A stretch of DNA of 64,000 nt from Tubulanus polymorphus (GCF_964204645.1 NC_134026.1:30228150-30292149); one strand, 5' to 3'. Positions 2,318 through 29,574 are shown, counted from the first letter of the stretch. Made by a program: numbers and translations. The notes: generated from the letters alone by a model not told the origin.

Positions 2318-5300
2318 TCTCGATACTCTACTTTCAATCTAAAATTTAGAACGAATTTAACAAAGAAGGCATCAAAAGAATGTCGCTAACGCTAACCATT
2401 GGCATTGCGCATTCTGCTGGTACAGTCAGGAAACTTGAAATCGAAAAATAAGCTAATTTGATTTGAATCGAAAGATCTGGAAGGGCCGCATCGGGCCGGC
2501 CTCTTTGGGCACTACAACCTTGGACAGGGGATGTAATCCGACACGGTGTAGTGACACAGTCTTTGGAGGAGAGAGGGGCATAGACTAAATCGTTCTGTCA
2601 AATCCACGCGTGTTTATAAATGGCGCGCTGTATGCTCGCTCAGGGCACGCTCCGCTGGCACCCGGCCAACTCAACCGTGACCGTGAGGATCGCGAATATT
2701 CATACCATTTTATCAGACACTAATTCAGAAAAACGTTCTGTTTCTTCTATTGTATTTGAGCCGTTTCTGTATATTTTCACACAGTGGTTAATTATTCCAC
2801 TTTATCAATCATAGTTTGAATCGACATATTTCGCTATTTAGCACGACTGATTGTGATGATAATGGCCGCCGCGATGCAGCTGGGCTGTCATTATTGATGA
2901 TATCAATTTGTTTCTCTGTGGTAAGTAACGAATTGGGGTCAGGGTTTGTTGATGTGATAAAAGCACGGACATGGGTATTTTTGATCTGATGAAACAACAA
3001 AAACTAAGAAGGGTAATGCCCAAAAAGAATTCTTTGTTCATCCGATTCTGACATTTGACAAGTGCCGAAGCGAAGAAGTGGACCGGACCACTCAACAACA
3101 GTCACACTGTCTCTTGACATGCTTGACTGGTTGTTGTAGTGTTTGTCACGGATGGTGCTGTCTTGTGAGTGTGAATGAAAGTGTGGCTTGTGACTGGCTG
3201 AATGACTGACTGTCACCACAATGCCTAGAGACTGACTGATCAGCACTTAACATGCCTGATTGACTTTGGGCCTTCAACTTGCTCTGAATGATTTGTGTGT
3301 GCTGTGTATAATCTGATAGTCTATATACTGTTGACAATTATTGCGATAAAGCGTCATTACCCTATCAGAATTGATCTCATCAATATGATTATGCATTACT
3401 ATTATTTAAATTATATGATTCAACGGAACAAAAAAGCTGGTTCTTTATGATGAATAAAACTGATGGTCCATAGTTAACTTCAATTATAATGTAGTTATCA
3501 TTTGATTGTTACAGATTCGAATCAGCCCGGGTTAAGTGTAATCAGAGAATTTATATTCCTGATCGGTTGTTGCTTCTCTCACTGTGTCCCCTTTGAGATT
3601 GCTATAAAGGGGGTTTGAAAATTAGGAAGTGGTTCCACGGTTCTCAGTCGATATTTGACTGTGAATAGTCAGCCCGCAGGCTCTTATATTATTGTTCCAC
3701 ATGTGAACCATCTTTTGTAACTGACCTGTGATGAGACTCATTAATAGGGTTGATGTGTAGTTTATCTGTCAGAAAGATTGTGAAATAAGGAATGTCTCAC
3801 AGTGACAAGATCGCAGCTTGATAACGGTGATTTTTATGAATTTGGGAACGAATATATCTTACTTAAATGAAGTGAGGGGCCTGGGAACTCGAAGAAATGT
3901 CGAACTGAGACCAGAATAATGTTGTGTACCAATCCTTGAACAACCTCTTCAGGTGTTAATGTTAGATTCTGTTAATTGACTGTATTATGATTAGTATGAA
4001 TTGAGAATTGTTCATCTCGGGCCACGCTGTATTATCACCTATCAATCGGTATTTATTATTATTCAAAACGTTCAGGTGTATAATTCAAGTCAATCGTAAC
4101 CATGGCAGTAAATCAATAAATAATTGGCCGCTGCCAGCCGCGATCTCTTTCTAAAAGCTCTAACTGATTGTATGCAACAATTCTCTCAATCATTCTCTGT
4201 ATAAAATCTATTTCCTCATTTTCCTGCACGATGTTGAACTTTGCCGGTTACAGAAGAGACTTTATCATCCATCATCATCAGGAACATGTCTCTTTCTCTC
4301 TCTCTCTTATGAGGATAAACTGGCTGTAGAGATAATCTCGATGAAACACTCTGTGGTGCTGTCACAATGTACAATAAAATCCCGCTTTATAAACCAAAAC
4401 AATGAAAGGTTCCTTGATCTATGAGCTATATCATATCTTATAATACTTGATTAAGTCTCTAGTCTTTGTTCTGGATTATAATACCAGGTACTTCAAATAA
4501 TTTCGCTGTATTCCTGAAGAAGAATATATTTGTATATTGTTGAAACAAGGAAATAATCTATAGCACAAGGAATTCTACAAACTCGATTACGTCATCAGTG
4601 GATAAGTCATCGCATTCAGGGGTAGATCTAGGGTTTGATTGATGGAGGGGTGCAGCACCAAAATATCATATGATTTAAAGGGTTCTGCGAAAAGTGCTCA
4701 TCGAAAGAAAATAAACTCCTTTTTGGAAATAGGAATACTGCTCTCCAGAGAATCAAAAATGTCATTTGATTTTTAATAAATTAATTTTTTAATCTTATTG
4801 TATATGGTTTAATGTTATCATTTCGATCATCGACATAATAATCGTGCTAACTTTGAGGATTGATGTTTGTCTGTTCACCTCTCACTTTGCGGCATTCATA
4901 TAGGCCTACCTGTCTGCAATCTTCAATTATTGCCTGGTTATTTATATAGTTTTATTTATAAAAATGTCTATTCTGGTTTTATATTTACCGCGTGTTGAAA
5001 TAGCAGCTATGATGTGCTAAGGTTTCTCTCATTTTAGAAAACTGTGATTTCTATTGTTCTCATAATGATATGTATTTACAGCAGTTTGTGCGTCATATTT
5101 AGTATAACAATAGTTGTAGCCGCCGCACATTGTATCAAACGTTAGGTCGAGAATATTCATATTTTCATGAAGAGAAATTCACCAGCAACTGATTTTGTAC
5201 TGGTCAGTTTTGAGAAGTGTGCGAGCCGCAATAACGACGAAAAAGTCAAAAGCGTTTGATCTGCGTTTATAGCTAAATATGAAATACATCGAAACTTAGT

Positions 5301-5720
5301 TAAATCTCGTCGTAGCTAGGATTGACGCTTGAACTGAAAATACATCGGATTAATACAATTCAACTGGATTCAACACAAATTGGAACTCAAGAATATTGAC
5401 GAATTAAGTAATGTTTCAACTGATTTTAACTGTAGCTTTATTCATATGTCGTTCAATGACTTATTTCTGATGTTACAGAATGCAAACGGATTAGAACGTG
5501 AAAGTTTGATAACCGTGCTATTTTCTTTGACGTTCAATGTTTTAGGGAGTAGATTAATTGACACAGAATTCTTTTGTTTATCCCCAGATACTTATGATAT
5601 TTATTTACATCAGTTTTAGGAGACATTTTAGCAAAATTCGATTTTTCTATTTCTTTTCAGTTTGAAGATCTTCGCGGGAATGCATATCGTTGGAAGTAAT
5701 ACAATGTTATTAGTTTGGTG

Positions 5721-8700
5721 ATGCACTTCCATGATGTATGTGGAAGTGCTATTGTTTTATCGTCTAGTCAAACCGTAGCAACGCGCTACAAACATTTCTG
5801 TAATGGGATAACGTTTACGCAGAAACCGCTGCCCGTCGGAGGCAAGTTGAGTTTGGAGTTGACGCAGGTTTGCGAGTTTAGCGGCGCCGTGAGGATCGGG
5901 GTAACTACTCGCGATCCGGCGAGTTACTCGCGTGAGGATTTACCGAGATACGCGTTCCCGGAATTAACGAATAAAGAAGGACATTGGGCACGGGCGCTGA
6001 ATGAATGTTACGCAGATACCGGCAATAGGATTACTATATATTTAACTAACGATGGTCAAATGCAGTATTTCGTTAATAATGAACATAAAGGAGTGTTTCT
6101 ACACGGGTTACCAACGGATCAAAACCTTTGGGTATTATTGGATATATATGGAAACACGAAATCAGTCAAATTAGTTCCAACAGGTAAGTAATGTAGGCCC
6201 ACGTCGAGAGAGGTTAGATTGATGTGAAAAACGTTTTGAAAAACATGTGAAAATTCCAGAATTATTCGTGATGTGAACCCTGACACGGAACTTGATTTCA
6301 CGTGTAACAGGATGCAGTAACATGCAGAAATTCGAGCTTAAAATGGTTCAGTTTGAATTGACCTACTCTTAACTTTTAAATTAACATCGGAATTGGAAAT
6401 TAAACTCAATTTTGCTGTCGATGTTGACAACAAGTTCATGTAACTCCTCCCTGCACCCGGGGACGATGATGAAACTAATGATGATTTTACTGATAGATGA
6501 AGCTCCGGTTGAGATTGTCGCGCGAGGACCCAGCGCAATGCAAGCGTATCATCAAGCCTGTAAATCCGGTACAAAACCTGTATTTAGGACACGTCTTATG
6601 TTAGTTGGTCAAGATGGAGTCGGCAAAACCAGTCTGAAAAAAGCATTAACCGGACAAAGGTAAAATAACTAAATGCTTAACGGCCGGGGAATGCTAAATC
6701 TGGTTCTCCATGCAGGGAAAACTAGGGATTTTGAATTTTGGCGTCTTCTAGTTCTATCTGGTAACGAGTGGCGCGAGGAACCTCTTGCAAAGAAACAGGC
6801 CCAGATTAGATTCAATCAGGGAATTTTCAGACATAGGGCACTCTAGAAAATCAGGGAACTAAGCTGGACCCAGTTCCACAGTTGTGAGTTAGAGTTAACT
6901 CTGAGTTAAAGTTAGTTCGTTTTCGATGAGTTAACTCAGGGTCAAATCTTAACTCAGAACTGTGGAACTGGATCCTGGAATTTTGCATTCCCTGATCTGT
7001 AAGAAGCCTCTGATTATTTGAGATTTGTGAGTTACTTCAATTTCTATGTGATTTTTAACTATTTCTTTCAGTCATGATGTTACCGAAAAAAGTACGGAAG
7101 GAATTGATTTATCGGCGTCTTGTAGTTTTAGTCGTCAGGAAAAACAAAATCTTCAGAAATCGATTCAACAACAAGATACGGCTCTTACACCGGGTAATTT
7201 TACTATCAACTCGATATTCCTAAAAAAAACAATCTCAATTATGCTGAAATCACTTTTTGGAGTTTTGCAGCCCCGAAAACCCAAACCCTCATCAGAAATA
7301 TTTGCATTCAGCTTCAACAATATTAGAGACTATTGAATGAAAGGTAGCACGAAGAATAGTGTATAACTTTAGATACTGATAGTGCGTTGACTGTTGTAGT
7401 GTTGGGTGGAGCTCATATTCATATTATCACATTACCAACCAACAAATTAAACAGATCATCGAATGCGGTATATACGTAATTCTCCGATTGTCTGAACTTC
7501 CCCATCTTCAATTATTACTTGTCAAAATATTTTTATAAACCCTCATCATCATTTATTATTTACTCGACGGGCGTGTGATGATCTGTCGCCATGGTAACAC
7601 GAATCATGTGTTGAAAATATGTTTTTTAAATGTAATTGTATCTGCATGGATTAAAACAGATACATTGACCTGGCCTAGGTTAGTGTAGTCCCCGCTATAG
7701 TATCAGTTATCAGATATCAGTTATCAGATATCCAAGCGGTTGAATACAGAAGTGTTAAAATAAAACACAATTGACAGGTGCATCCGGAGGGGACCCTTCT
7801 TATAACATGTTCTTCGCCAGGTTGCAAGATCGTGACTTAAGTCCAAAAAGTCATTAGAAATAGATTGGTCTTGATTGCTTAAACTTGTGTTAAGTAGTGA
7901 GATCAGTTAGGCTATAGAACCAAAATGATCTCAGACTGGTCTTAAGTTGTTAGTTCGGCTATAGAACCAAAATGAGATTAGACTTGTCTTAAGTTGTTAG
8001 ATTGGTTATAGAACCAAAATGAGTAAATGAGCTAAGCAGTGTGGTCATTATATCCAAACAGCTTACAATTGTTTACAGCAACATTTGACAAGGCAAAAGA
8101 TGATCAAGCAAAAAATTCCAGTTTTTTCATCACGAAGAGTCATTTGATTTAGTGCCTGCTCCTATAGAACGCGCAGTAGTGAAGTGAATGCACTGATTGA
8201 ATGTTGTTTCACTCGGGTGGAGTTGATTAACTATTGATTTAATGTTTCGTGATAATTATCCCGAGAATTCATGACCATTGAATCGATTTCAAATGAAATT
8301 CTAAACCGACTCCGATTAATACGTACGGCGTTGATATTCGATATATTGTTTTGTAGGAGGAACCGATTGGTTGGAAGAAGAATATTACAACGCCCTATCA
8401 GATAACATCGTACAGGAACTCGTTCATCAGAAGAGAAATGATAAACCTTCGGTAGATGTAAAAAATCAACAGCTGCTAAACATGACTGCAGCTACTGCAG
8501 CTGCTGCTGCTGCTGCTAAAATGCCTGATATAGAAACAGTTTCCGATGTGGTAAATAATATATATTCATAGTTCTTTCGACGTGTGGTAAAACTCACTGA
8601 AGTCGTCAAAGTATAGAAAGATGATCATTATGTTGACGACTTATCCAATGATGACTTACACTTGAATCGAAATTACAAAATGAGACTCAAAAATAGAGAA

Positions 8701-11700
8701 ATAGAGATGACTTTCCCAATGTGACTGCTTTACCATTGATGACTATATGCCTCATTAGTCTTTGGATCGACAGTAAAACTTGGGCGTCTTAATCGAACGA
8801 TAACCACACTCAAACGTGGTGAACGGATAATAAGATTTATTTATTAAATCTAAAATATATACACTTGACGATGATCTCTAGGGTGAGATCGAAACGTCGT
8901 GTCTTATATATATTTTAGATTTAATAAATAAATTCTTGTTTTTAAATTCTTTTAATCTGTAGATAGTGGGTTTTTATCTTATTGGTCGTCTTAGTTTGCA
9001 CGATAACTATGTCGATGACTTATTCGCATGACAACTTACACACTTACCAATACTAAATAAATTAGAGATGACACAAATTATGTGATGATCCTTAAGAGGA
9101 CTTAGAGTAAGAAAATTTGATTGGAAATACAAATTAGGACTAAAGAATAGAGATTTATCTGATGATAACTTCAATGAGTTTGACTGAATTATTTGTCCTA
9201 ATAAAATTATTATCCTTTGAGCTTGAAACGATTCTGAGAGTTTGATATTTCTACTGTTTTCATGATAAAGTGATGATATATATTTATTATTTACAGCATC
9301 GTCGTGGATCGATAATATCTCTCAGTCCGTACACCGATTTATTGAATGAAATGCCCGAAAGAGTCGTTCAAATCGTCGAATATAAATTGAAAGAACACAA
9401 ACGAAAACCGTCGAAAGAATCGTTACGTAAAGATCAAGATGATGTATTGTTTAATATCTGGGATTTTGCGGGACAATCGATATATTACACAACCCACCAG
9501 GTAATTCGTTATTGCTTCATTTCTCTGGAGGGGTTACACTAAAGTCCGGACAGCTAGTCCATCTTTCCATCCGTCGGTCCATGGAGTAAATTTAGTGCTG
9601 ATAATACATCCTATGTCTTTGGTTTTATATTTGTGGGGACTTTTCGTCTGACACAGCGGACATCGAAATATATCACAGAGTTGAGAATCGGGGTTAAAGA
9701 AAAAGCTGAAAATGTCTGTAAAATGATAAATCTCAATGATATTTTCACTAGGTTTTTCTATCGCACCGAGCTGTTTACGTTATTGTGTTCAATCTTTGTC
9801 ATGAACTATTTGAACTGGCTAAAGTAAGCAACAAGGTACGTATTTAATGCACTGTATCCAATTTAGTGCACATGAAGACCGGTGACTTCTAGTGCATGGT
9901 TGTGAAACCTTTTATTCATCGAGTGAACCTTCAAATTACTACCAGTCTTTTAATTTTTATTGATTTGATACCAGGTTAACAAGGCTCCTCTACAACTATT
10001 TCGAATTTGTGAACTGTGGAGAGATTTTTTCGAGTAAAACTGATTTTGAGTAATATTCGTAATATTTTAGTCGTCTTATGATGAAAGGGAGTTGACTAAT
10101 CTGGAATATATCAAATTCTGGATGAATTCTATCCACGCTCACGCCGCTAAGAATACCCATGACAGTATAGATAACATATCACTATCGCCACCTATATTCG
10201 TCGTCGGAACTCACAAGAATAGTCTCCCGGGAAATGAGGAAGAAAAACAGAAATTGGTAGGTTTTGAATTAACGCGTGAATGAATGATTGAACTGACATT
10301 AGGTTAAAAACATCGAAAAATTGATTGAAAGTTACGAATATCTGCCTCTTCATGGTAGCCTATATAAATGTGTTTACAGATTGAAGAAAAGTTCCGTGTG
10401 ATTCGTGAAGGAATCGAGAACCAAACTTATACACATCATGTAATACCACAGTTTTATGCCATTGAAAATTGTAGTGAAACTGAAGACAATCAGGTAGTTG
10501 ATTTTCCTACATCTCGATATTCAATTTAATAGGTTTATAATGTAATAATTTCTACAAATATATTCATGGTTTATTTATTTGAAGATCGTTGAACTGAGGA
10601 ATAACATACAGACGGTTGGTAGTAAAGAATCCTATATGGGAGAACAAATTCCTTTAAAATGGCTGCAATTTGAGAAGTCAATTTCGCAGTTAGTCGACAA
10701 CGGGATGTACTTCAGTTCAGTGGACCAGGTACTACTCAACATCCGGGAGTGTTTTCCAACCATAGTACCAACGGAATGGCACTTTTTCGGCAAATAAAGG
10801 CACCAAAAACAATTTTTCCTTTCCTCTAAACTGATACAGGAAAAAATCCAAAAACCTAGAAAAGGAAATTGGATAACGCTATTGACCACATGTTTCATGT
10901 TTCTTTATCTATACATGATTCAATGAAAAATGAATGAATTGTAACATTTCTCTGATTCACTCAGGGAATTCTGTATAACCTATACCTGCACTATGTTCTG
11001 TATCCACCATTGAGTTTCTACTAACCGGTAATTTGTTTGTATTTCTAGCTGAAAGAAGTAGCTCATGAACACGATATATTCAGCGATGAAGAATTCTCGA
11101 CGATGTTAGAATTCTATCATGATTTCGGATTGATTATTCACTATAATTCTGCTGATGAGATTCTGAGTAGAATAGTAATACTGAAACCTCAGTGGTTAAC
11201 TGATCAATTCAGAAAGGTTCTCGCATACGACGCTGATGTGAGTAGAACATCATCAATCATAAACCACGTTCACACCATGTTGTGCTAAATTTAGTCTGTT
11301 CCGTGTCTGGGCCAAATTCATCACACTGAATAGCATAAGTGTGAAAGGCGGTTTATGATAAATGACCACGGATTTATGGCGTCTGTATAATGAATCATAA
11401 CTAGTAGTTATAAATGTTTGGTAATACTAAACATTGTAGGAAAACACAGAGAATGGAGTTCTGAATAATAAAGATATGAATAAAATCTGGGGTGATGTGA
11501 TTGTGGAGAAAGCTGCATTAATCGGTTTAATGGATAAATTTGACCTGCTCTGTTTTAGTCTTCCAAATAACAATGTAAGTAGAATTGATGATGAAAGTTT
11601 CTTTTCAAGGAGGAGTTGACTCTAGAATCTCAAAACTGTGATATTTGTTTATACATGGTAGACTACGCACTTGCCACAGAGCTGAGTGCCTCATATTATC

Positions 11701-14700
11701 ACATGGGGATCATTCATTTATTACGTACGCATGAAATTTGACTTTTTCACCCCAGTACACGAAATCGGCCATTTTTTCATATACATTTAGCATTTTGGTA
11801 TGCAATTGCACTGACCCATCCCCCTGCCCTAATACGTACGTAATAAATGAATGATCCCATGTCCCCTGCCCTTGTTTGCCACGGGCTGATCACTTCAGAT
11901 GATCACGAGCCCCAGTCTCTGGTTGCCTAATTGTCTTGGATTATTGCGTGCCCTAAACAAAATATAAAAGATTTCCTCTATCCCGTGTAATCACGATCAA
12001 TCGTTTCTTCGACTGCTCCAGAATTCATTTTCCTTTGAGTGGATTCTACAGAATTCAACCGTTAAATAATGAATGTAATCTTTTCAGATGACGTTATGTG
12101 AATATCATATACCATCACGAGTTCGCAAAAATCGATCGATTCCTCAACTTCCTCCGTCTGTTCATGATGTCTGTTTCTATATGGATTTCCACGGATTCCT
12201 ACCTGGTTAGTGACACTATATTCATGCAGGGATGTGAACCTGATTGTGTCGTGAGACTCTACCACTGATCCCGTCCTGATAACCCTGTGTACATACATGC
12301 AGCTATATGTGCGCTGGGTATATTCTGTTCCTAATGATAGTGATAATGATTCATCTGTCTAAATATGCTAATTTGGCATTACATGATACAAGGAGAAAGC
12401 AAAAATCCAGTTCGATAAAAAGTCATCTAGTCTCGCAATGTCATCAGGTTTAAATCCCTATTAACAAATAGATGGTTAATTGATGTGTTAATTGATGTGT
12501 TAATTGATGTATTAATTGATGTGTTAATTGTATAGATGGATTATTTCATCGTATTGTGACTCGTGTGATTCGCTGGTCGTTTGAAAACGGGGGACAGTCG
12601 CCGAGATTGTATTACAGACTCGCTTGTTTCATCATCGATAATGAACACGATCTCGTCCTTCAGATGGAGCCACTGAAATACGCTCGTATTAAAGTAAGCA
12701 TCTTTCATTGTTTATTTGAATCTGTATATTGCCTGTATTTGAACCCGTGTATTGCCTGTATTTGAATCCGTATATTGCCTGTATTTGAACCTGTATATTG
12801 CCTGTATTTGAACCCGTCTATTGCCTGTATTTGAACCTGTGTATTGCCTGTATTTGAACCCGTGTATTGCCTGTATTTGAACCCGTGTATTGCCTGTATT
12901 TGAACCTGTGTATTGCCTGTATTTGAACCCGTGTATTGCCTGTATTTGAACCTGTATATTGCCTGTATTTGAACCTGTATATTGCCTGTATTTGTAGGTT
13001 CTGATAAAGAGAGTCGCTGATTTAAGTGATAGTGATGAATCTGCTGATGAATCTAACACCGATAAAGCTCTTCCACCCCCGAATCCTTCTGTTTGTGCTA
13101 AGGTTTGATTTTTGATATAAAAAAAGTAAAAAATCAGCTACGTCGTAGCTGAGACGATCATTACATTGACAAATGATGACCTTGGCTAGGTAAATTGAAT
13201 TGGAAATACAAATGTGCACTAAATTCAGAGATGATTTATTTGATGATGATTTAACTGAGTTTAACTGTCACTCCTATCTCAACAGTTTCACTATTTGTAT
13301 CTGTAACTGGAATTATTGATTATTTCTAGGTTCGACATTTTCTTGAGTCGACTCTGTGTAGTTTACGTGAAATGTGGATTCGTCGTTTATCATACACCGC
13401 TCGCGTCATCTGCTACTGCGGTAAACAATGTCATTACCACGGCAACGCTTACTGTGAATTGTTGGAATGTTTGCATTTTCTGAATCTCGATGAATGTCTC
13501 ACAAATAAGGTTTGTTACTATTCCACTAATCAAGAAAAAATTGAAAGGGATTTTGAATTCCGTGATCTGTTAAAATACTGTCTGATTCAGGGTGGCGCCA
13601 CCTACCTCGAAATCAGGGAAAAGTCAGGGAATATTGTAAAAAATCTAAAAATCATGGAAATTTGTTGAGATTACTAGATTACTAGATTACCTAAAATTAA
13701 ACAGTTTCCGTCTATGTCGTACGTATTTGACTGTGATTGATTAGATTAGCAGATTGAGTCAGGGAACACAACGCACATGTCAGGGAATAGTCAGGGATAA
13801 GCGCGTCAAAAAGTGACGTCACCCTGTGATTCTCTCTCTGATTCCCTCTGAACAACTGTATATTTATTCTGTTTATAGATCGTGTGTTGCGAACACAGAA
13901 GAATAAAAACTGCTAATTATCGTAAATGGTTCCCGTCACATCATCCTGTTGGTGAGTACGCATTCACAGAAACCTCGGTCCCTCCTCCACCCTGAACCTT
14001 TCTGAAATCACAGAAACCTCGGTCCCTCCTCCACCCTGAACCTTTCTGAAATCACAGAAACCTCGGTCCCTCCTCCACCCTGAACCTTTCTGAAATCACA
14101 GAAACCTCGGTCCCTCCTCCACCCTGAACCTTTCTGAAATCACAGAAACCTCGGTCCCTCCTCGACCCTGAACCTTTCTGAAATCACAGAAACCTCGGTC
14201 CCTCCTCCACCCTGAACCTTTCTGAAATCACAGAAACCTCGGTCCCTCCTCCACCCTGAACCTTTCTGAAATCACAGAAACCTCGGTCCCTCCTCCACCC
14301 AGAACCTTTCTGAAATCACAGAAACCTCGGTCCCTCCTCCACCCTGAACCTTTCTGAAATCACAGAAACCTCGGTCCCTCCTCCACCCTAAACCTTTCTG
14401 AAATCTGTAATGAATGTCTTCATTTAGCCCGTCCTGGACCGATTTTACCGGCTGACATTTTACCGTCGAAAGATGAAAACGTCATCACAAACATCGAAGC
14501 GAAGAAAGGAGCCGAACTTCCCGGTTGGGTGAAGAGCGCGGCTAAACTTCTGAATGGTGGATCAGAGGGGCAAGACTGGACTGAATTAGCTAAGAAACTA
14601 GGTACAGTAGAACATGACTGCTTCGAATTATCACGTGCCCCACGAGTTTACAAATTTTCTCCCACTCCAATTCATTATGATAACAACCAATCCCTGCTCC

Positions 14701-17145
14701 AACTTCCCCGGAATTTACGTAGCTCTGAAAAGATGTATTAGTCCTACACGATCTGAAACAAATGGAGTCTATTAGACCAAGTTCTACCGCTCTCGATAAA
14801 GATTTGAGAGTTAACTCATCGAAAATTGGCTGATTTTAACTCTAACTCGCATCTGTAAAACTGGAATCTGCATTTGAATTTAGCAATCTCAGAAATAGTG
14901 AATGATCGCTGAACTCCTGCTCTGGTCAACGATTCATGTTTTGTTTGTTTTTTATTCGAAGGTTATAAGAAGATTCGAATCGATCGTTTTAACGATGATT
15001 TAAATCCGGGTCTCGCTCTGATCGCTGATTGGATTATCAGTAGTGGTAATACAGCTTTATCTATTGATATGATGATTACATATCTAGAACAGATGCATCG
15101 AGATGATATTATAGATATTATACATAAAGGTCGAGGTAAGTTTCACGGAAAATGGATGATATCTTCGTTAAAAGTTTCAGAACCTATTTCATGGCTCGGT
15201 AGACAGGGTTTTTGACTCGGGTCAGTGAGCTGTTCGGTTTGAACCTCAGTAAACCCATACAAGTCAATGATCAATACTTGATGGAGTAAAGTGTTAAGAA
15301 ATGCATAAGAATTATAAACTGCGGGTAGAGATCTATGCCCCTGGACAACAAACAGTCTATAGACCTATTGCAGCCATGTGTTTTTTTTACATGACTGCTG
15401 CCATATTTACAGTCCATACAATAAGAGATTTTAAATAACGGATCCCGAAATTTGTAAATGACTATGTTATCTTGTGTTGTTATGGCAAGTCTCCAACACT
15501 AATAAGCAAACTAAGATACAGATCTACTGCGTAACTTACGGTGTTTATATATGAATTATTTGTAGAATATGAAGTCGATCCTCCACAGATATTTATCAGT
15601 TATCAATGGGATAAACAAGATGAAGTTCGCCAGTTACGGGACTGGTTAGAACGAGCTGGATTCACGTGTTGGATGGATATCGGTCAGATGGGCGGTGGGG
15701 ATCAACTGCACCAAAAAATAGACCTCGGAATACGAAACTGCAAGGTTAAACTAGTTTATAACAAGTGAAGTTCGTAATAAAAAACATGGGCCTCACAAAT
15801 GAGGGAAAACTTGGAAGTTCAAAATTATATTATTATAAAATTCCCGGTTTGGAAATATTTGAGAATTTGATATTCTGCTAATCCAGGAAATATGTAGGAA
15901 ATTCAACTTCCCTGCGCAAAGTTCTGAGATATTTATTGCTTTCTTCCTTTAGCAATTTTTCTTAAAAATCACATTAATCAACCAGTCACCACTAAAGTGT
16001 TGATGTCTCTGTAGTTTGATGATAACTGTTCGATTTCCATTTGGAAAAATTGAAAAATCACGAGTGAAAAGCTTGGTAATTTTGTATTGGTGCTACTGTA
16101 AGATCAACAAGCTCCAGAAACTTGTATTGTATGTACATGTATTTGTATTTCATAATTGTAGGTAGTTTTGGCTTGTTTGTCACCTAAATACATAGTGTCT
16201 CACATCTGTAACCGGGAACTCAGTTTAGCCGATATCTTACGCAAACCAGTTGTACCTATAGTGTATGATAAGGTACCGTGGCCTCCACCGGGGGGCATGG
16301 CACTTATGTTCTCACAACTGATCTATATCGATATGAACGGTAGGTGGCAACTCCATTTTGTTTTTAATTAAGACCCAAGATCTTGAGTTATTACCAAAAC
16401 TTTAGAGCAAATAGATTTAAAAAGATCTTGAACTCGGTGCTACACAGAATAATTCTACTGAAAAATATTCTTGTGGTCTATCGTTTCTTTCCTGTTAGGA
16501 ATTAGTCAAAATTACTACAAGTACCGTAGTTGTTACTTTCAAAATGAATTCTACATTTGATTGCAAATGCATTTTATTATTTCATGGCTTAAATCATTGA
16601 TTTGAGGCTCAGAAACTCTCTTACGGATTTAAGAAAAAGTGTTGACTTTTAACTTAAAAAATTTCTAAAATTTTGCCTCAGTTCGACATCAACAAACTCT
16701 AGAAATTGGAGTGATAGATACTGTGAGTGTTATTGTTATCTGTTTAGGTGTTGGCGGTCACGGAGGTTCCGGTATTCACGCCGATCTAGAAGATAGATAC
16801 AATGAAGTCATCCAACAAATCTCTCATCACACGAGTCCGGAAAATCCACCTCAGATAGACGTGGAAGTTTCACCAGCCGTTGATGAGACCGATGAGAAAG
16901 AGTTAACGCCGCGCTCGGACGCGACCGTGCTCAGTTCTGATGCGATTTCGCAGGATCAGTCTGCTGCGGAGAACGTAATACAACCCGATTATAATATACT
17001 GAATAATACGTCAGTTCTCCCTGAACACTTACACGGTGACCGTGTTACACCTCCCAATTTACAACAACAACCAACTCAACAAACTCTCAATTCAACCGTT
17101 GAGCAAGTTAGCGTTACTAAATGTGCGATTTGTACGATATTGTGA
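5721..17145 (+). CDS. Multi-exon ROCO-family protein: NHR/Neuralized domain - Roc GTPase - COR - Cys/His-rich segment - Death domain - TIR (TIR_2-type) - C-terminal CaaX
   Basis: NHR: MHFHDVCGSAIVLS...FCNGITFTQKPL...GAVRIGVT...LWVLLDIYGNT (5721-6183). G1 RLMLVGQDGVGKTSL (6497-6659), G2 STEGID (~7072-7193), G3 IWDFAGQSIYYTTHQ (9297-9500), G4 IFVVGTHKN (10071-10256). COR: YMGEQIPLKWL, MLEFYHDFGLIIHY, VILKPQWL, FHGFLPDGLFHRIV. Death: DWTELAKKLGY...LALIADW...LEQMHRDDII (14428-15136). TIR: IFISYQWD...CWMDIGQMGGGD...LSPKY...CNRELSLA (15567-16339). Ends KCAICTIL*. Introns examined are canonical GT-AG. Confidence 0.9.
6867..6974. mobile_element. About 108-bp MITE (family A), PIF/Harbinger-like
   Basis: TIRs of about 25 bp (gacccagttccacagttgtgagtta / taactcagaactgtggaactggatc) flanked by CTG on both sides. 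Near-identical inverted copy at 61934-62041; decayed copies near 14775-14870, 19355-19460, 40520-40600, 42060-42160 and 52090-52185. Confidence 0.75.
7585..7598. promoter_or_regulatory. RFX X-box-like motif in a ROCO intron
   Basis: GTCGCCATGGTAAC matches the consensus GTYNCYATRGNAAC. Confidence 0.3.
8861..8902 (+). ncRNA. Minimal type I hammerhead ribozyme (Penelope-like element type), intronic
   Basis: acac-TTGACGA-t-gatctc(tagggt)gagatc-GAAA-cg-TC-gtgt. Stem I acac/gtgt, 6-bp stem II, very short palindromic stem III, C3>U core variant. Flanked by a perfect 26-bp inverted repeat (8835-8860 / 8908-8933). Confidence 0.7.
11706..11858. mobile_element. About 153-bp MITE (family B), PIF/Harbinger-like
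   Basis: Perfect 23-bp TIRs gggatcattcatttattacgtac / gtacgtaataaatgaatgatccc, with ATG on both flanks (possible 3-bp TSD). Related inverted copy at 60928-61089. Confidence 0.8.
12473..12530 (+). repeat. 12-bp tandem repeat (gatgtgttaatt) x ~4-5 abutting a splice acceptor
   Basis: Read directly; the array runs into ...taattgtatag|ATGGA. Confidence 0.85.
12713..12994 (+). repeat. 22-bp minisatellite (tattgcctgtatttgaaccYgtR) x ~13 filling intron 12694-12997
   Basis: Read directly; it accounts for the repetitive spurious minus-strand ORF 12712-13059. Confidence 0.95.
13588..13826. mobile_element. About 240-bp MITE (family C) with internal TCAGGGAA repeats
   Basis: TIRs cagggtggcgccac / gtgacgtcaccctg flanked by TGATT on both sides (5-bp TSD). 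Fragments of the same family near 6710-6860, 60365-60423 and 62615-62650. Confidence 0.75.
13965..14404 (+). repeat. 44-bp minisatellite x 10 (cacagaaacctcggtccctcctccaccctgaacctttctgaaat) in intron 13952-14427
   Basis: Read directly; copies are nearly identical. Confidence 0.95.
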
Positions 17146-18987
17146 TTTCACAATCAGGGGTCTGTCTGTCGCTCAAAAGTTGGTTACAGGAAACTATTTG
17201 GATAGTTGTATAGGAACCAAAAAATCTGTTCATTATAACCGATAGTTCTATATACAGTGTAACTTCGTTTTGGCGTCCCTTGTCTTTAGAAATTATATAT
17301 TGTGGGTTTTAATCCATGGTGTATAGGGGATATAGTGACAATAAAGACTGTATTATTACTATAGTATTTATACAGTGGTTTTTCTTAATCAACTATTGAG
17401 CGGCCACTGACCACAGGCAGTAGTGTAACTGTGAATGATAGTGTGATATATCTATCTAGAATAACCATGGCTTTATATGTTAGACTAAAGTGAGCTTTTA
17501 TTGATGTGAAAAGTATAACGAATCCTGTCTGATGATAATGAAAGATTTGTATATTCAGGCGAGCAATTATAGGGGGAAGGGTCATGTGAACTTTAGTAAA
17601 AAGGGGGTAAATAGTTTATTATGGACTGCGACCGCAGAACTCCATCATGCAGTAGAGAACTCTAGTCTCGCTATTGGATCAGTCCTATAACATCACATTT
17701 CTGTGTAGTATTTAATTGTGGGCATTGATTTCCAGCTGAAATAATTACAGCTGATGGAAGATAGTTGACTTAAGAAGCAGCTTTGATCGTTAAACATTAC
17801 ATTCAGGTTATAAATTAATGAATCTCATTGATGGATCTGAATGTGTCATATTTCATCAATATTTCAACATCTGCAGCCTATTTTACACTTGTGTGATATT
17901 TGACTTTGTGAGTTGAATGATTGAAAATGAATTGGTTTTATGGACTCGATCGTAAGTCCAGTCAGGAATGAAGTTTATTGAAAACCATTCAGATAAAAGA
18001 ACTAACTATTCATCACTATTTCAGTAAATAATGTAAACTAGAATATACAGTGAAACTGTCATCATTCCAGTGGTTTGATAAATGTAGTTATTTGTATATG
18101 TAAAAAACTATACCTTACACTGGAGGCTTCTGAATATTGATTATACGAAATAGACATATTTTACGAACTTGTAATGTTTTTAGTAGTTGTCCATACATAC
18201 ATACATATATAACTTTGTATATTTTGTCTGGTTATTGTTATCCTGTTGAGCGTTGATGAGAATTGTAGTTTTTTTTCTCTACATTCTGAGGAACAGTCAT
18301 CATCAGTCTGTCGTAAATTGTTGATTGTTAACTGCTGAGGGTTGAATTTGTTGTGAAGTACATCCGTCCATTTTGTACATATAATCAACAGACCGTATTT
18401 ATTTATGATTTATTGATTTAATTTATTTAAGATCAGAACTCGATTCAAGAGTCTCGCTCGCGGTTAAGTTTTACTCTAGAATTAAAACTAGTTTATTTCC
18501 TCTGTTTTAAACCCACGAGTAAAATATTAACTGAGAACATTTGAACCAGGTCCTGATTCAATCATATGATTTTAAATTGTGATGCAGTGAAGGTCATGTT
18601 TTGATTCTTACAGTTCTTTAATTATAATATATGAAAAAAAAAACTAAAAAGATTCTATTCTACACCGAGTGAGAAATATTTTTTATTTCAAATTATAGAC
18701 TGAAGATTGTTTTCCGGTTGTTTTATGATTATTTGAATATTGATTTCGATTAAAATCTCAAACATTCCAATCATGTTTTAATAGAAGTTTTACTTCATTG
18801 TTTGAAATATTCCACTATGATAATTTTTGTATTCTTGTCCAGAATGTAAATAAAGGATGTAGTGTTTATACTGAATTATGAAAGTTCATCTTCGAGTTTT
18901 TCTTTCTGATCTTCATGAGGATTTCACCTAGAATAACCATAGAAGCGATAACATTAAAAACCTCATTTTCTAATGAGTAAATACAGT

Positions 18988-23861: not shown

Positions 23862-24857
23862 AATTATTTTTCGGGTCATTCATAAACCAGTATTTATATC
23901 TAGTAATTATGCTATGAATAGATGAAGTAACGCATAGCTGCCTGCTCAACAGTACATAATATATATATGCAGACCAGGGTTTTTTGTGTTGAACTGAAGG
24001 ACTGTTTTTAGTACGAAGGAATTGAACATTTAGCTGCACGTACTTTTAAATCTTTGTGGTTTGCTGTAATAGATTACATCATACACATTTATTCACGTGA
24101 TGTTGAACCGTTCGGAGAATTTATTCGGTAATACGTGTGTAACACTTATTCTTGAAAAGTCGAAAAGTTTACTTTTGAAACGTGCAAATACGATTTAGAG
24201 AACAAAACAAACCAAATGTTGGCGATAAAATCTAATCATTACTGTTACGATTTATGACGAGAATTTACACTACTGCTGATATTACGGATTTACAAGTACA
24301 ACCAGCTAGCTATATATAGTAGACTAGAGGAAGCGTATTACAGCACTTCAAATTCAGCTTTTCACCTACAATTTCGGAGACTCAACTACTCGTGGATCGA
24401 GTATATTTACAACTATCGAGACAATAAGTTAGTAATAATTCGCATTTGCTGTGATCAATAAGTGAAAATAGTGTGGCAGCTGGAGAATTGTGAAGAAAAC
24501 CTGTTCGCAGAGAGACAGAGAGAAAGAGAGAGAGGGGTCCACTAGAATATACAGAGTGTTGCAGCTTCATCCAGTACATATGCTAGCGTACTGTGTACTT
24601 GTGTGTGTATTTTTGATTGTTCCAAGTTTTATGTCACGCAGCTGAGAGGCATAGAAAATAATATCGGTCCTCTGTCGCCATCTGGTAGAAATACAAAAAG
24701 CAGGAATCGACTGATTTTGTTACGGACAACACAAAAGCACGTTTGACTCGAACGTACGAGTCTAGACTAATTACTATCAAACATACATTGACTCGAACTC
24801 GTAGAAAAAAGCTCAGCTTGTGAGACGTTTTACTGCGAAAGTTGAAAGATCGAAAAG

Positions 24858-25223
24858 ATGTCGGCCACGGATGTTGCAGTCGCCGAAGATAATCACCAAC
24901 ACGCTGAGCCAAAGAAATCATCCGGATTGTTTTCTTGTTGTCCGTGCGTTTCCGGCGGCAAGAAAAAGAAATCGGCGGCGAAAAAGTCGAAAACAACCGA
25001 AGAACAAAACGATGCAAATATCGTTGTAGAAGATCAGATAACAGTGGAAAGAGTTGATGCAGTGGATGCGGCCATTAAAAGCCCAGACGGACGGGTTCTA
25101 GTTGTACTTCCCGACGAACCCGATGAAAATAAAGATAAAAAGAAGAAGAAGAAGAAGGATAAGAAAAAAGATGACGAGGTAACGGGTGCAGACGATGTTG
25201 ATGTTGAGGTGGAGGATGATGAG
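24858..25223 (+). CDS. Profilin alternative N-terminal exon B (122 codons; Cys cluster, polybasic and acidic segments)
   Basis: In-frame TGA just upstream of the ATG. Encodes GLFSCCPCVSGGKKKKSAAKK...KKKKKKK...DDE. Phase-0 donor GAG|GTAGGT. Confidence 0.7.
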
Positions 25224-26419
25224 GTAGGTGCTTGCTATGCTTTTTTGGACTAGTTCCGGGTACATCTCCCGGGAACTAGTCCAATGGCTGTTACTATCGC
25301 GGCTATTACCGGTCTGAGTTGTTTTTTGATTAGTCCATTGTCTTACGATTTTTGTGAAGGCATTTCATTGGCTTCTTGGATAAACACTTCTTTTATTGGT
25401 TGAATCTTTCTATCGTCACTTGTGATTGGCTACAGTTTTATTCATCAGTGTTTGTCTCATTATTTTATCATTATTTCGCTGCAGTTCTACCGCTCTATAT
25501 TTGAGGGTTTCACTCTCCATTAACATATTGACTTTTACCATATATACCATATATGTTGAATATGTTAAATTGCTCGATATTTTTGTTGTAATTCAGGTAC
25601 CTGGAAATATACGTATTATGTTACGATCGATTCAAAGCGAATCAATATGTCGCCCATTATGTTTTATGACCACATTTCGAAATGTACTTTCGCTACATAG
25701 CATAGCAATGAAATTAAGTACTTCTCTTCTGCCAAAGTACGGTAATGAAATATTTATGGATCTGTCTAATCCAAAAGGACAAATATAAATGTTCCTACCA
25801 TGAAGTAATCACTAGAAACGTTTTTGAGTAATACTTCAACCTCACAATATTCCAACACCTTATTTAGAACCAAGCCAGAAACTATTGGAAATAAGCTATA
25901 AAACATCATCAATAATCGGAAGGCTTTTGTTATAAGCATAAGAGAAATTTTATTGGTAGAACTTCCCAGAACATCTGTTGCTTCTATTGATTAAAGCCCG
26001 GCCTTATATGTTGATCATACGCGTCATAATTAAGCTTGAGGATTTACGAGTTTCCTGGTGATTTAGTTCAGAGACAAAACTAAAGCTCACGACTCGTCGC
26101 TGAAAAAAATCGCATAGTTATTTGATGACAATCTATATAGAACCCTGGTGGTGCCACGGGCGAAGGTTCTATTAGAAGCAGGTCTAGTCTGCTGGTGGAT
26201 ACAGTATTCTCCAGATGTGCACACTCCCTAGCGACGAGGTTATTATTCACGTTGATATACTAGCCTCACTACAGCGGGACACATTTTGCAATTACGTTTT
26301 ATACGTATTGCAGTAAAGGTATAATCAATTTAGTAGTCGCGTTTGTCGATGAATGGTCGAAACAAGTGGAATCTGGTGATCTGAACAATACAGATAGATA
26401 CAAGTGAGAATTTACGAAA

Positions 26420-26684
26420 ATGGGAGATAACTACGCAGAAGAAAAAGATATTACAGCAGATGAAAATCCGTTGGTAAATAAAGAAAAGAGAAAGAGTGTA
26501 AGCGCACCAGTTCGGACACCAGACGGTAGGATTCACTCAGTAGTTGAAGTTGACGTTGACGACCCATCACAGGTCGGTGAAAGAATGAACGAGGTCCTTA
26601 ATCTAGAGGACGATAAAGAGGAAGATGTCTTTGATGATGAGAGAAAAGGTGATGCTACGAAGGATGATGATAAGGATGCTGAGA

Positions 26685-26746
<62 letters not shown>

Positions 26747-26794
26747 TGTCAGGCTGGATCTGCAACTTTAACGAAACAAGAATCCCTTAGTTCG
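26420..26794 (+). CDS. Profilin alternative N-terminal exon C (125 codons; highly acidic, (GAT)n poly-Asp)
   Basis: In-frame TGA at 26405, AAAATGG start, phase-0 donor TCG|GTGAGT. Confidence 0.7.
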
Positions 26795-29574
26795 GTGAGT
26801 TATTGAAGCATGCGTGCTTTAGGTTTAATGTCTAGTTGTTGACTACGTTATACCTGTCTTACTCTGCCTCCATATGACGACATTCATTTCCCCTTTGTTA
26901 ATTCAGTACTCTGTTTTTTTTGTATGTATAATTTGACTTCTAAAATAAAGAGGTTGTGTATATAGATATAGTAGCAGTTAACACAAGGTTCCATTTGTTC
27001 AGCTGATATGAAGTGTATCGCACACGGCTGTGACGTTATAGATGTATTGGTTATTAATGAATTGATCAATTCTGCTGCGTTAAAAACGAGAAATTAATAT
27101 CTAGAGAACGACGACGTACTGCGTATATTGAAATCCTACTGGATTAATGTATATATGATTTATTGTCCATTTCATTCCCCGATGATAGACGCCATTTTGT
27201 GCAAATGTGCCAAGTTTTATGTCAAACTACATCGCTGCCAGTTTAGCAGAGCAGCTTTAGCGAAGGGGCTCGCTCATTGAGTTAACCCCCCTGGTTAAAT
27301 TAACGTAATACCACCCTTTAAAACTGACCCTAGATTTTTAAAACGATGCAGACTTGAGAATCAAGGGTTCCTGGTGATTTTGAATTAATAAACCGATGTT
27401 GTACGGGGAATACGTAAGGACATCGACTCATGGTGTCACAAGTGTTGTTTGTATATACGTAGATTAGACTGTGTGGACACGAGCTGCTGCTGTTGTATGT
27501 CGCGTTACGTCTCGACTGAGATATGAATAATGAGATACAACATATTTAGAAGACGCCTTATAACAGCTGTCATATTACTTCCACTGTAATAATTTAACAA
27601 TCTATCAATATCGGACATTCAATAACTTAAACAAATTCAATTCATATTCAATAATCATGATCATCCTCTTTATATACCCCACATAGAAACCGCCCCAGAG
27701 AGATAGTCTTTGGGATATTCGTTTGAGTAATTCTAAACCTCCTTTTTTAAAAATTAAGTTGAATGCAGCCTAATTTAGAACGTACGTAAAACTTGGTACA
27801 TTTGTATTTGCACAAAATGGCGTCCACTTCAACTGGACACAATGCTTTTTTCTTTATTGAATATCTAATTCTACCTGCTGTATTTCCAATGCCATGGTAT
27901 TCTAGTCTATCACATATTGATATAAGCCTGATAATCATCGCGATCCTCTGTAAGTTGAGTTAGTATTTTCACAGTATATGCCCTCAAAATGACGCATGTC
28001 ACGTGGTACTATTGGATTTGCATCTTGACATCCACATGAGTCACGTGTGTTGAATTTTGCTTTGTTTTTGTTTTTATAGCTTACTGAATATTTCAAAAGC
28101 ATCTTTTAGTCTATTAGCTCATCTGTTAGAACCGAATCGATTAAGAGATGATGATATAAGATATAATGATGTATGTACGTGAAGATGTGATATCGATGTA
28201 TTTGTAACAGCTGGTTCTCAGAGACATCAATACTATGTTTCTTCTACTTCGGTGAATAATTTAATATTTTCTTGATGTAACATCTGATGTAGCTTTTGTC
28301 GCGTTTGTATTTTATTAAATTCACGGAGTCATTTACGAACCCATTCAAAAAAAGGAAAACTAAAGAACGTTTCATTTTGCCTGATCGCACTGTCCATCAG
28401 TCTCGACATTACAGCATCACATTCCTACATGGGATGCTGTATTTATACTCGTCAATATGGGAATGAGTACTTGATAAATGGGCGCGAGAATATACCACCA
28501 TCATATTCATTCAGGATCGCGTTAAAATTGCATGTCATAAAACTCACTAGCTGGATGACGAGCTTAATGAGTTCAAGTAAAATGTACAATCACACGTCCC
28601 CAGCTGACTGTGACTAGCGAGGCTATTGAGGCAACTGTCGATGTAGGCTACACGATGCATGATGTTGTTTTTATCCGGAGGACGAGAGTTTAGTTGAATT
28701 CATCTGCCCCGTTAAGGGTTAATTTATCAATATTTCTCTGTTAGTATCGGAAAAAGTAGAATAGTATGAAATAGATCTTACGCTGCAAGGGAAATACGAT
28801 TTTTCCAGCCAGCTGACAATTGACAGTATATTAAAACCAGTCTTGCATATTTTAGTACAATATTCAGCTGCGAACAGACTCTTGCACTGCTAGAAGCTGT
28901 ATGTTGTTACTGGCAAAATTGTTTCCATTTGATTGGATCCCGGAAACGATAGATGAGCTGGCATATGACGTAACTGTTCTATTTGACTAGATTCATATAA
29001 TATATGCATTCGTGCAGTTAATGTTTAATTCTCTAAACAATATTTAATGCGATAAACTTAATGTATGCGTATGCGGAAAATCAGGCAATTTCGTAAATTG
29101 CAAAAAATCATCAGGAAAAACAATGCTCTCTTGAGGATGCTGGCGTACGAATCATGAATAGCTTATGAAAGTAGCGCGGTTGTATTTAGTGTTTGGAGAC
29201 GGATTTCGAATAGATGCGTTGTTTTTATTACTGCGATACTAATTAGCGAATGGCGATAAAGGCGAACAACATCATCGTTTGTTACTGAACCCCAGACAGG
29301 GGCTTATGTAAATTGGAAATTCAGACAAGCTGACGGGAATCATATAACACACCACAGTATACACCACATCAGTGAGGTGGGGCTGGTATTGGAAAGTCAC
29401 CTGAGATCGGTCTCCGAAATCTGAGATCTCAGTGAATTATCTGTCTGTGCCTGCTGTTTATTAGTGAAAATCGAAAACCATGTTCGCGCTATATTAGGAG
29501 CTACTAGAATGGTTCTGTATGATTTAACGTGTTTTTAACGAGGGATTTGTAAAATAGGAGTTAAAAATCGAGAT

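What the first reader, a model, noticed from the sequence alone, without database searches (positions are those of the whole stretch)
5721..17145. NHR-Roc-COR-Death-TIR protein: candidate GTPase-gated immune or cell-death signalling module
Seen: one gene combines a Neuralized-homology (peptide-binding) domain, a Roc-COR module, a Death domain and a TIR domain, with no LRR or kinase. Established: characterised ROCO proteins (LRRK1/2, DAPK1, MFHAS1, Dictyostelium Rocos) have different architectures; SARM1-type, plant and bacterial TIRs hydrolyse NAD+ using a Glu in helix C. The equivalent Glu is present here (SHICNRELSLA). Inference: a sensor-switch-effector design analogous to TIR-NLRs, with Roc-COR in place of the STAND ATPase. 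I know of no functional description of this architecture, although uncharacterised homologues may exist in other invertebrates.
Basis: partly seen in the sequence, partly recalled or inferred. Interest (0 to 1): 0.8.

Follow-up and report, generated by a model that had tools for sequence, protein, structure and literature searches.

The report
Lipid-anchored GTPase-TIR protein of invertebrates

Summary
Observation confirmed. 5721-17145 (+) is a 21-exon GT-AG gene for a 1244-aa NHR-Roc-COR-Death-TIR protein, identical to a database protein named from Tubulanus polymorphus. Spliced contigs join COR, Death and TIR exons. The architecture is not new: 50 of 90 hits carry all five domains, from molluscs to amphioxus and ticks. 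Its centipede and oyster orthologues are tabulated in PMC5094078, and PMC9334734 already suggests GTPase-linked TIR signalling. This scan met the family in another genome (e1-7318350). Added here: a C-terminal CaaX plus a second cysteine in 47 of 47 orthologues (0 of 105 controls), predicting lipid anchoring; TIR Glu1072 in 47 of 47, but the helix-C Trp tied to ADPR cyclisation in 0 of 47; a TIR sister to ARM-Death-TIR-TIR proteins, which mostly also end in CaaX. The Glu alone is weak evidence (over 70% of all TIRs have it). Mostly single-copy, slow evolution fits a core signalling part better than an NLR-like sensor. Best reading: a membrane-anchored, Roc-gated TIR making linear ADPR (0.4); scaffold-only adaptor 0.3. 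No activity was tested.

The parts
5661..5720 (+). 5' untranslated part of coding exon 1 (AG acceptor before 5661); a further 55-nt upstream piece was not placed
   Evidence: X2 contig lies on 5660-6181 and has 55 more letters beyond; in-frame stop at 5697-5699
5721..17145 (+). Gene for the 1244-aa NHR-Roc-COR-Death-TIR-CaaX protein. Coding exons: 5721-6183, 6497-6659, 7072-7193, 8357-8550, 9297-9500, 9752-9835, 10071-10256, 10380-10493, 10585-10728, 11049-11237, 11440-11574, 12088-12205, 12536-12693, 12998-13102, 13330-13509, 13879-13951, 14428-14601, 14962-15135, 15566-15744, 16162-16339, 16748-17145
   Evidence: identical to P0001; joints
5721..6176 (+). Neuralized homology repeat (NHR), residues 1-152, all in exon 1
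   Evidence: Pfam PF07177; model matches Drosophila Neuralized NHR1 4kg0, Z 28.3, rmsd 0.9, 153 aligned
6583..10614 (+). Roc GTPase domain, residues 184-520, with a variable, partly helical insert at about 231-355; G1 GQDGVGKT, G2 Thr217, G3 DFAG, G4-like GTHKN
   Evidence: model matches LRRK2/LRRK1/CtRoco Roc-COR, best Z 29.3, rmsd 3.9, 472 aligned
10615..13944 (+). COR domain (COR-A and COR-B), residues 521-875
   Evidence: Pfam COR-A; Foldseek and VIA matches
13411..13890 (+). Cys/His cluster at the end of COR-B (C821, C823, H842, C849, C857 in 47/47; C827, H830, C835, C840 in 42/47); zinc binding inferred
14520..15134 (+). Death domain, residues 909-993
   Evidence: Pfam PF00531 E 1.3e-7; PDB sequence hits p75NTR/NRADD death domains
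15589..16830 (+). TIR_2-type TIR domain, residues 1002-1140, tied with the Roc P-loop half as the most conserved part (0.66 mean identity; 31 invariant positions)
   Evidence: orthologue TIR model pLDDT 88, TIR fold
16204..16218 (+). Helix C motif I1068-C-N-R-E1072: Glu 47/47, Cys 47/47, Trp at the -4 position 0/47
17122..17145 (+). C-terminal CxxC-aaL (CAICTIL*): CaaX motif with X = Leu and an upstream Cys, after a poorly conserved tail
   Evidence: 47/47 orthologues; 0/105 Roc-COR relatives without this TIR

Best explanation
A mostly single-copy ROCO protein of bilaterian invertebrates with an invariant CaaX tail, likely geranylgeranylated and membrane-bound, whose Roc-COR core likely gates assembly of its TIR domain into a predicted NAD+ hydrolase making linear ADPR rather than cyclic messengers. 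Shown: the gene, the five domains, the conserved motifs, the distribution and the TIR's kinship with ARM-Death-TIR-TIR proteins. Inferred, in order: (1) CaaX with X = Leu plus a nearby Cys gives a geranylgeranyl and probably a palmitoyl anchor (established CaaX rules, recalled); (2) the NHR binds a short motif in a membrane protein's cytoplasmic tail, as Neuralized binds Delta (recalled; ligand unknown); (3) nucleotide cycling of Roc-COR changes its oligomeric state; (4) Death-domain contacts and membrane crowding bring TIRs together to form the two-subunit active site; (5) Glu1072 cleaves NAD+ to nicotinamide and ADPR, giving local NAD+ loss, signalling or cell death. The trigger is more likely a conserved host state than a variable pathogen ligand.
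For: One chain in 50 of 90 hits; spliced contigs. CaaX and upstream Cys in 47/47 against a 12%-conserved tail, tail Cys frequency 0.4%, 0/105 in controls. P-loop Lys 47/47, G2 Thr 41/47, G3 Asp and Gly 47/47. The TIR has 31 invariant positions including F1003, Y1006, G1038, L1041 and E1072. By sequence this protein's nearest solved TIRs are AbTir, BtTir and PdTIR (E 3e-7 to 1e-4). Foldseek on an orthologue TIR model ranks SARM1, SPARTA and AbTir first. An aromatic residue at the AbTir W204 position marks cyclases and is weaker among ADPR-only or inactive TIRs (bioRxiv 10.1101/2022.05.07.491051, passages); the family has W in 0 and Y in 2 of 47. Close Roc-COR relatives are fused to caspase, Bcl-2, DED, CARD, HEPN, GT4 and Macro domains.
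Against: No activity, lipid or localisation was measured. The Glu is in more than 70% of TIRs and does not track activity. Loss of the Trp abolishes activity in plant L6 and ROQ1 and lowers it in SARM1 and AbTir; AbTir R178 and Y207, needed for activity, are not kept at the aligned positions. The wide structural search ties Hydra TRR-2 (Z 17.0, rmsd 2.6, 126 aligned), SARM1 (16.1, 2.5, 127) and MyD88 (15.8, 2.6, 129) closely, and for orthologue fragment P0273 TRR-2, which lacks the Glu in that alignment, is the best sequence hit. The G4 Asp is Asn here and Asp in only 9 of 47, so guanine specificity is not assured. Annotated oyster isoforms lack the NHR.
Confidence: 0.4

Rival explanations
1. 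A non-enzymatic, membrane-anchored adaptor. Death and TIR nucleate a myddosome-like scaffold with other Death-TIR proteins (for example the ARM-Death-TIR-TIR sister family) and kinases; the Glu is structural.
For: The Death-TIR order is that of MyD88. The Aplysia survey files a ROCO-bearing gene under MyD88-like. The Glu is kept in TLR1/2/6/10 with no reported NADase. The Trp is absent. MyD88 and TRR-2 tie with SARM1 in structure.
Against: MyD88 Box 2 (RDxxPG) and Box 3 (FW) are not in this TIR. MyD88 and TIRAP rarely keep the Glu, whereas it is 47/47 here and present in nearly all TIRs of the sister family.
Confidence: 0.3
2. Same biochemistry, but a non-immune job: a developmental or neuronal membrane-trafficking or degeneration switch (Notch-ligand-type tails read by the NHR, Roc acting like LRRK2 at membranes).
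For: Mostly single-copy, with subgroups that follow phyla. The NHR is 36-37% identical to Neuralized NHR1, rmsd 0.9. SARM1, the animal TIR NADase named in PMC7075850, acts in axons.
Against: No RING, so no Neuralized-type ligase. The nearest Roc-COR relatives carry apoptotic and conflict domains. A clam transcript labelled 'neuralized pats1' fell about 759-fold at infection foci (PMC4769524, one table row; orthology unchecked).
Confidence: 0.2
3. An NLR-like pathogen sensor: the NHR binds a pathogen ligand directly and Roc-COR replaces the STAND ATPase.
For: Sensor-switch-effector order. Bacterial LRR-Roc-COR proteins carry TIR and other effectors in predicted counter-invader systems (PMC8195603 section 15). 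SPRY-like folds, NHR among them, recur in immunity.
Against: No expansion: one locus per named species apart from a close pair in Bulinus, while the sister family has several paralogues per genome. The NHR keeps the Neuralized consensus instead of diversifying. All 9 listed exonic variants are synonymous.
Confidence: 0.1

Closest known systems
[quoted passage not shown]
   Same: Same five domains in the same order. T1IR33 is P0039 (43% identity, full coverage), NP_001161599 is P0017 (48%), K1QWV6 shares a 90% cluster with P0016 (48%). Same CaaX tail.
   Different: Nothing of kind: this is the nemertean orthologue. No function was found for any of them in the papers read.
ARM-Death-TIR-TIR proteins (ecTIR-DC family 6 per PMC6836662; sea-urchin 'MyD88-like protein L1')
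   Same: Closest TIRs outside the family (about 42-57% identity); same SxxCxxE motif without Trp; CaaX in 65 of 74; Death before TIR.
   Different: ARM-like region in place of NHR-Roc-COR, two TIRs, several paralogues per genome, and a polybasic stretch in place of the second Cys (6 of 65 have one). Separate side of a 99% branch in the TIR tree.
Sea-anemone NG3 (kinase-SH3-Roc-COR-Death-TIR_2; A7RN39), PMC5094078
   Same: Roc-COR-Death-TIR core order.
   Different: Kinase and SH3 in place of NHR. No cnidarian protein of this build was among my named hits, so orthology was not tested.
LRRK1/LRRK2, DAPK1 and prokaryotic Roco proteins
   Same: Roc-COR fold (Z up to 29.3), G1-G3 motifs. DAPK1 also has a Death domain after COR (recalled).
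   Different: No kinase, LRR, ankyrin or WD40; a 125-residue Roc insert; G4 Asp mostly replaced by Asn; a TIR and a CaaX tail.
SARM1 / TIR-1 and bacterial TIR NADases (AbTir, BtTir)
   Same: TIR fold, FISY strand, helix-C Glu; GDxL BB-loop end shared with AbTir.
   Different: No ARM or SAM; no WxxxE Trp; BB and EE loops differ from the SARM1 motifs; activity untested.

Membership tests
[quoted passage not shown] | All five domains in this order in one chain | tested here: met
[quoted passage not shown] | Full-length homology and common descent | tested here: met
   43% over 100% to T1IR33; one side of a 99% branch in the TIR tree. On Roc-COR alone FastTree gives one clade, IQ-TREE leaves it open and the AU test does not reject it (p 0.57)
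ROCO proteins | Roc directly followed by COR | tested here: met
   Pfam; fold matches to LRRK1/2 and CtRoco
ROCO proteins | G1, G2, G3 nucleotide motifs | tested here: met
   K198 47/47, T217 41/47, D370 and G373 47/47
ROCO proteins | G4 guanine-reading Asp (GTHxD, recalled consensus) | tested here: not met
   N460 here; Asp in 9 of 47; Asp in 19 of 44 other Roc-COR proteins by pattern, so it varies in this clade and does not bar membership
ROCO proteins | GTP binding, hydrolysis and nucleotide-dependent oligomer change | not testable with these tools
   needs biochemistry
TIR NAD+ hydrolases | Helix-C catalytic Glu | tested here: met
   E1072 47/47; aligns with AbTir Glu in an orthologue
TIR ADPR cyclases (AbTir, plant TNL, SARM1 type) | Aromatic residue four before the Glu (WxxxE) | tested here: not met
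   Ile here; W 0, Y 2 of 47; rule
TIR NAD+ hydrolases | Fold closer to enzymatic than to scaffold TIRs | tested here: inconclusive
   TRR-2 Z 17.0, SARM1 16.1, MyD88 15.8; Foldseek ranks SARM1 first
TIR NAD+ hydrolases | Measured NAD+ cleavage on self-association | not testable with these tools
   needs assay
SARM1 orthologues | ARM/SAM domains; E(R/K)LEAG BB loop; H(D/E)YQ EE loop | tested here: not met
MyD88 orthologues | Box 2 RDxxPG, Box 3 FW, Glu usually absent | tested here: not met
NLR / STAND receptors | NACHT or NB-ARC ATPase with repeat sensor | tested here: not met
   no such Pfam family at E<=0.01
LRRK / DAPK1 kinases | Protein kinase domain | tested here: not met
   the UniRef label 'non-specific serine/threonine protein kinase' on some orthologues has no kinase domain behind it
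Neuralized E3 ligases | RING domain | tested here: not met
CaaX-prenylated proteins | Cys fourth from the end, aliphatic a2, X = Leu/Ile (recalled rule) | tested here: met
   47/47, X = L 45 and I 2; 0/105 controls
CaaX-prenylated proteins | Actual prenylation and membrane localisation | not testable with these tools
   needs cells or mass spectrometry

The most novel reading that the evidence does not exclude
This family and its ARM-Death-TIR-TIR sister form a second animal lineage of enzymatic TIRs beside SARM1: prenylated, membrane-tethered NAD+ hydrolases present in the protostome-deuterostome ancestor and not found here in vertebrates or insects, with this member the first TIR enzyme switched by an LRRK2-type Roc-COR GTPase.
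Probability: 0.3. Interest if true: 0.8.

Novelty: new member of a known kind. Interest (0 to 1): 0.45.

Why it matters
PMC7075850 (2020) states that among animal TIRs only SARM1 has known NADase activity. A conserved, mostly single-copy gene with an invariant Glu, found in oysters, sea urchins, amphioxus, flatworms and ticks, is a direct test of whether animals kept a second TIR enzyme. The invariant CaaX tail gives a location (membranes) and a clean mutant. The missing Trp predicts the product. A kinase-free ROCO with a measurable output would also be a simple readout of Roc-COR switching, still an open matter for LRRK2 (recalled). The gene itself is an ordinary orthologue of a catalogued architecture.

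Tried and rejected
Separate genes: rejected (one open frame; a contig joining COR, Death and TIR exons; 49 other one-chain proteins). Pseudogene or chance frame: rejected. No RNA holder is on record; X2 is called RNA only from its splicing; X3 and X4 showed no GT-AG joint among the listed rows, which says nothing on expression. Predicted complex of Roc-COR (155-880) with Death-TIR (905-1142): no verdict, score 0.00, alignment not used. Prokaryotic relatives: a two-pattern scan of genome contigs matched 12 stretches and confirmed none; a narrow test. PADLOC (best E 5e-12) and ESM Atlas (TIR_2 clusters of rotifers, haptophytes and bacteria at 0.92-0.94) show only a generic TIR_2, no donor. The Atlas search of the Cys/His region gave leads under 0.9 only. 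Trees: the first Roc-COR run did not finish; FastTree (69 rows; P0246 left out for an over-long span) gave one clade; IQ-TREE on 40 rows did not (20% of bootstrap trees); the AU test did not reject it. The origin of the Roc-COR and the order of fusions are unresolved. No vertebrate, tunicate, insect, nematode or cnidarian member among the named rows; these lists are word-limited and cut to the best hits and many rows are unnamed, so absence is not shown. No whole genome is held, so copy number in this animal was not checked. Literature: 10 searches found no functional study and no mention of the CaaX. Gerdol et al. 2017 (Dev Comp Immunol 70:145), which defines the ecTIR-DC families, is not held and may already name this family and its tail. 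The NHR binding residues could not be taken from a paper, so the ligand surface was not tested.

Full report
1. The gene is real. Reading 4500-18500 and testing splice sites gave 21 GT-AG coding exons from 5721 to 17145 with one open frame of 1244 aa. It is identical to P0001, which the search tool names LOC141900379 of Tubulanus polymorphus. Pfam finds Neuralized, Roc, COR-A, Death and TIR_2 above their cut-offs and no LRR, kinase, RING or NACHT. An AlphaFold2 model of residues 1-1145 (67 sequences; mean pLDDT 80.5, pTM 0.72) matches Drosophila Neuralized NHR1 (Z 28.3, rmsd 0.9, 153 aligned) and LRRK2 Roc-COR (Z 29.3, rmsd 3.9, 472 aligned).

2. It is one transcript unit. Four runs of one study hold the DNA, none on record as RNA. 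X2's contigs are spliced: joints are listed at introns 5-20 (16 of 20; intron 14 with only 22 letters on its short side), and introns 1-4 follow from a 1510-nt contig on exons 1, 5 and 7. One 995-nt contig carries the last COR exons with the Death and TIR exons. The contigs overlap but are not one molecule. All 9 listed exonic single-base variants are synonymous (about 6e-5 by chance; one search hid 57 rows).

3. It is an old, catalogued family. Of 90 hits to residues 1-1140, 50 (this protein included) carry all five Pfam domains, counted by hand; most are 42-55% identical, the most distant 31-37%. Named members come from nemerteans, annelids, molluscs, a flatworm, rotifers, a centipede, chelicerates, echinoderms, hemichordates and amphioxus. 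Nearly all named species give one locus; Bulinus has a close pair. PMC5094078 (section 11 and a supplement row read) lists this architecture for T1IR33 and K1QWV6, both orthologues here. PMC9334734 (passages, half the discussion, one supplement row) notes Aplysia ROCO-TIR genes and suggests a GTPase TLR cascade; its figure with the NHR could not be seen.

4. What the alignment of 47 full-length orthologues adds (chosen by me as complete, partial models left out). (a) All 47 end in CaaX, X = Leu in 45 and Ile in 2, all with a second Cys just upstream, behind a tail of 12% identity. None of 105 Roc-COR relatives without this TIR has Cys fourth from the end. By the usual CaaX rules (recalled) this predicts geranylgeranylation, probably with palmitoylation. 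One targeted search found nothing on it. (b) The Roc keeps G1-G3 (K198 47/47, T217 41/47, D370 and G373 47/47), but the G4 Asp is Asn here and Asp in only 9. (c) COR-B ends in five invariant Cys/His and a second set of four present in 42, missing as a block in the hemichordate and amphioxus rows shown; zinc binding is inferred. (d) The TIR has 31 invariant positions, among them E1072.

5. How far the Glu goes. In an orthologue's TIR the Glu aligns with AbTir's catalytic Glu and position 1068 with its Trp. That position is never Trp and is Tyr in 2 of 47. The preprint 10.1101/2022.05.07.491051 (passages) finds an aromatic residue there in all cyclase TIRs and weaker conservation among ADPR-only or inactive ones; it also reports loss of activity in two plant Trp mutants and in AbTir R178A and Y207A, positions not kept here. 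PMC7075850 (sections 10 and 35, passages) puts the Glu in more than 70% of all TIRs, TLR1/2/6/10 included, but in under 10% of MyD88 and TIRAP. By sequence P0001's nearest solved TIRs are AbTir, BtTir and PdTIR. A model of the Lineus TIR (pLDDT 88) ranks SARM1 first by Foldseek, while the wide search puts Hydra TRR-2, SARM1 and MyD88 within 1.2 Z. Enzyme activity is about an even bet; a cyclase is unlikely.

6. Kin. The TIR's closest outside relatives are ARM-Death-TIR-TIR proteins (ecTIR-DC 6 according to a passage of PMC6836662). They share SxxCxxE, and 65 of 74 end in CaaX, mostly with a basic stretch and no second Cys. The TIR tree separates the two families at 99%, which suggests an ancestral Death-TIR-CaaX cassette (inference; no reliable root). 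The Roc-COR's relatives (29 proteins scanned) are shuffled invertebrate proteins fused to DED, CARD, caspase, Bcl-2, HEPN, GT4, Macro, ankyrin or kinase domains, like the bacterial systems in PMC8195603 (section 15). On Roc-COR the family is one clade by FastTree, open by IQ-TREE and not rejected by the AU test; its subgroups follow phyla.

7. Mechanism. Most likely (0.4): a lipid-anchored ROCO whose NHR reads a conserved membrane-protein tail, whose Roc-COR cycle and Death contacts cluster the TIRs, and whose TIR then splits NAD+ to linear ADPR. Every step after the sequence features is inferred. Rivals: scaffold-only adaptor (0.3), non-immune developmental or neuronal role (0.2), NLR-like pathogen sensor (0.1). 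The only immune hint seen is one table row in PMC4769524, of unchecked orthology.

8. Verdict. Observation confirmed; interpretation partly supported; a new member of a known, untested kind. Interest 0.45, because the invariant CaaX, Glu and missing Trp make a second animal TIR enzyme directly testable. Gerdol et al. 2017 and the preprint's supplements could not be seen and may bear on novelty and on the Trp rule.

Noticed in passing
window 5680-5721 (+): A 13-codon upstream frame in exon 1 whose TGA overlaps the main ATG by one base (TGATG); may tune translation or be chance.
   Followed up: partly
window 6385-6496 (+): The 3' end of intron 1 is open in frame with exon 2 and holds Met codons; annotated oyster isoforms start just before exon 2 and lack the NHR. 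No spliced evidence for such an isoform here.
   Followed up: partly
window 8490-8520 (+): Poly-Ala stretch in the Roc insert with an in-frame 6-base deletion allele in run X1.
   Followed up: no
window 7883-8023, 12467-12530, 12713-12994, 13964-14405: Intronic tandem arrays of period 47, 12, 23 and 44 (the last 10 copies at 98%); high-depth dispersed repeats near 6864-6977, 8600-8900 and 11700-11900.
   Followed up: partly
window 30060-58752: Neighbours look unrelated: profilin (30060 +), galactosyltransferase (32714 +), trypsin-like protease with an Ig exon upstream on the same strand (34314 and 35660 -), rhodopsin-family GPCR (41064 +), acetyl-CoA synthetase (58411 +).
   Followed up: partly
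window 24846-25253 and 26408-26806 (+): Two acidic, lysine-rich frames with no Pfam match; both contain a similar (S/V)PDGR motif and the first has a CCxC patch followed by a basic run.
   Followed up: no
P0215, P0168, P0185, P0194: Unusual invertebrate ROCO fusions: Bcl-2-Roc-COR-caspase (Owenia), DED-Macro-Roc-COR-Death (crinoid), CARD-FN3-Roc-COR-TIR (brittle star), NACHT-Roc (coral) (names).
   Followed up: partly
P0079, P0091-P0164: The ARM-Death-TIR-TIR family also ends in CaaX (65 of 74), usually after a basic stretch, and keeps the Glu in both TIRs.
   Followed up: partly
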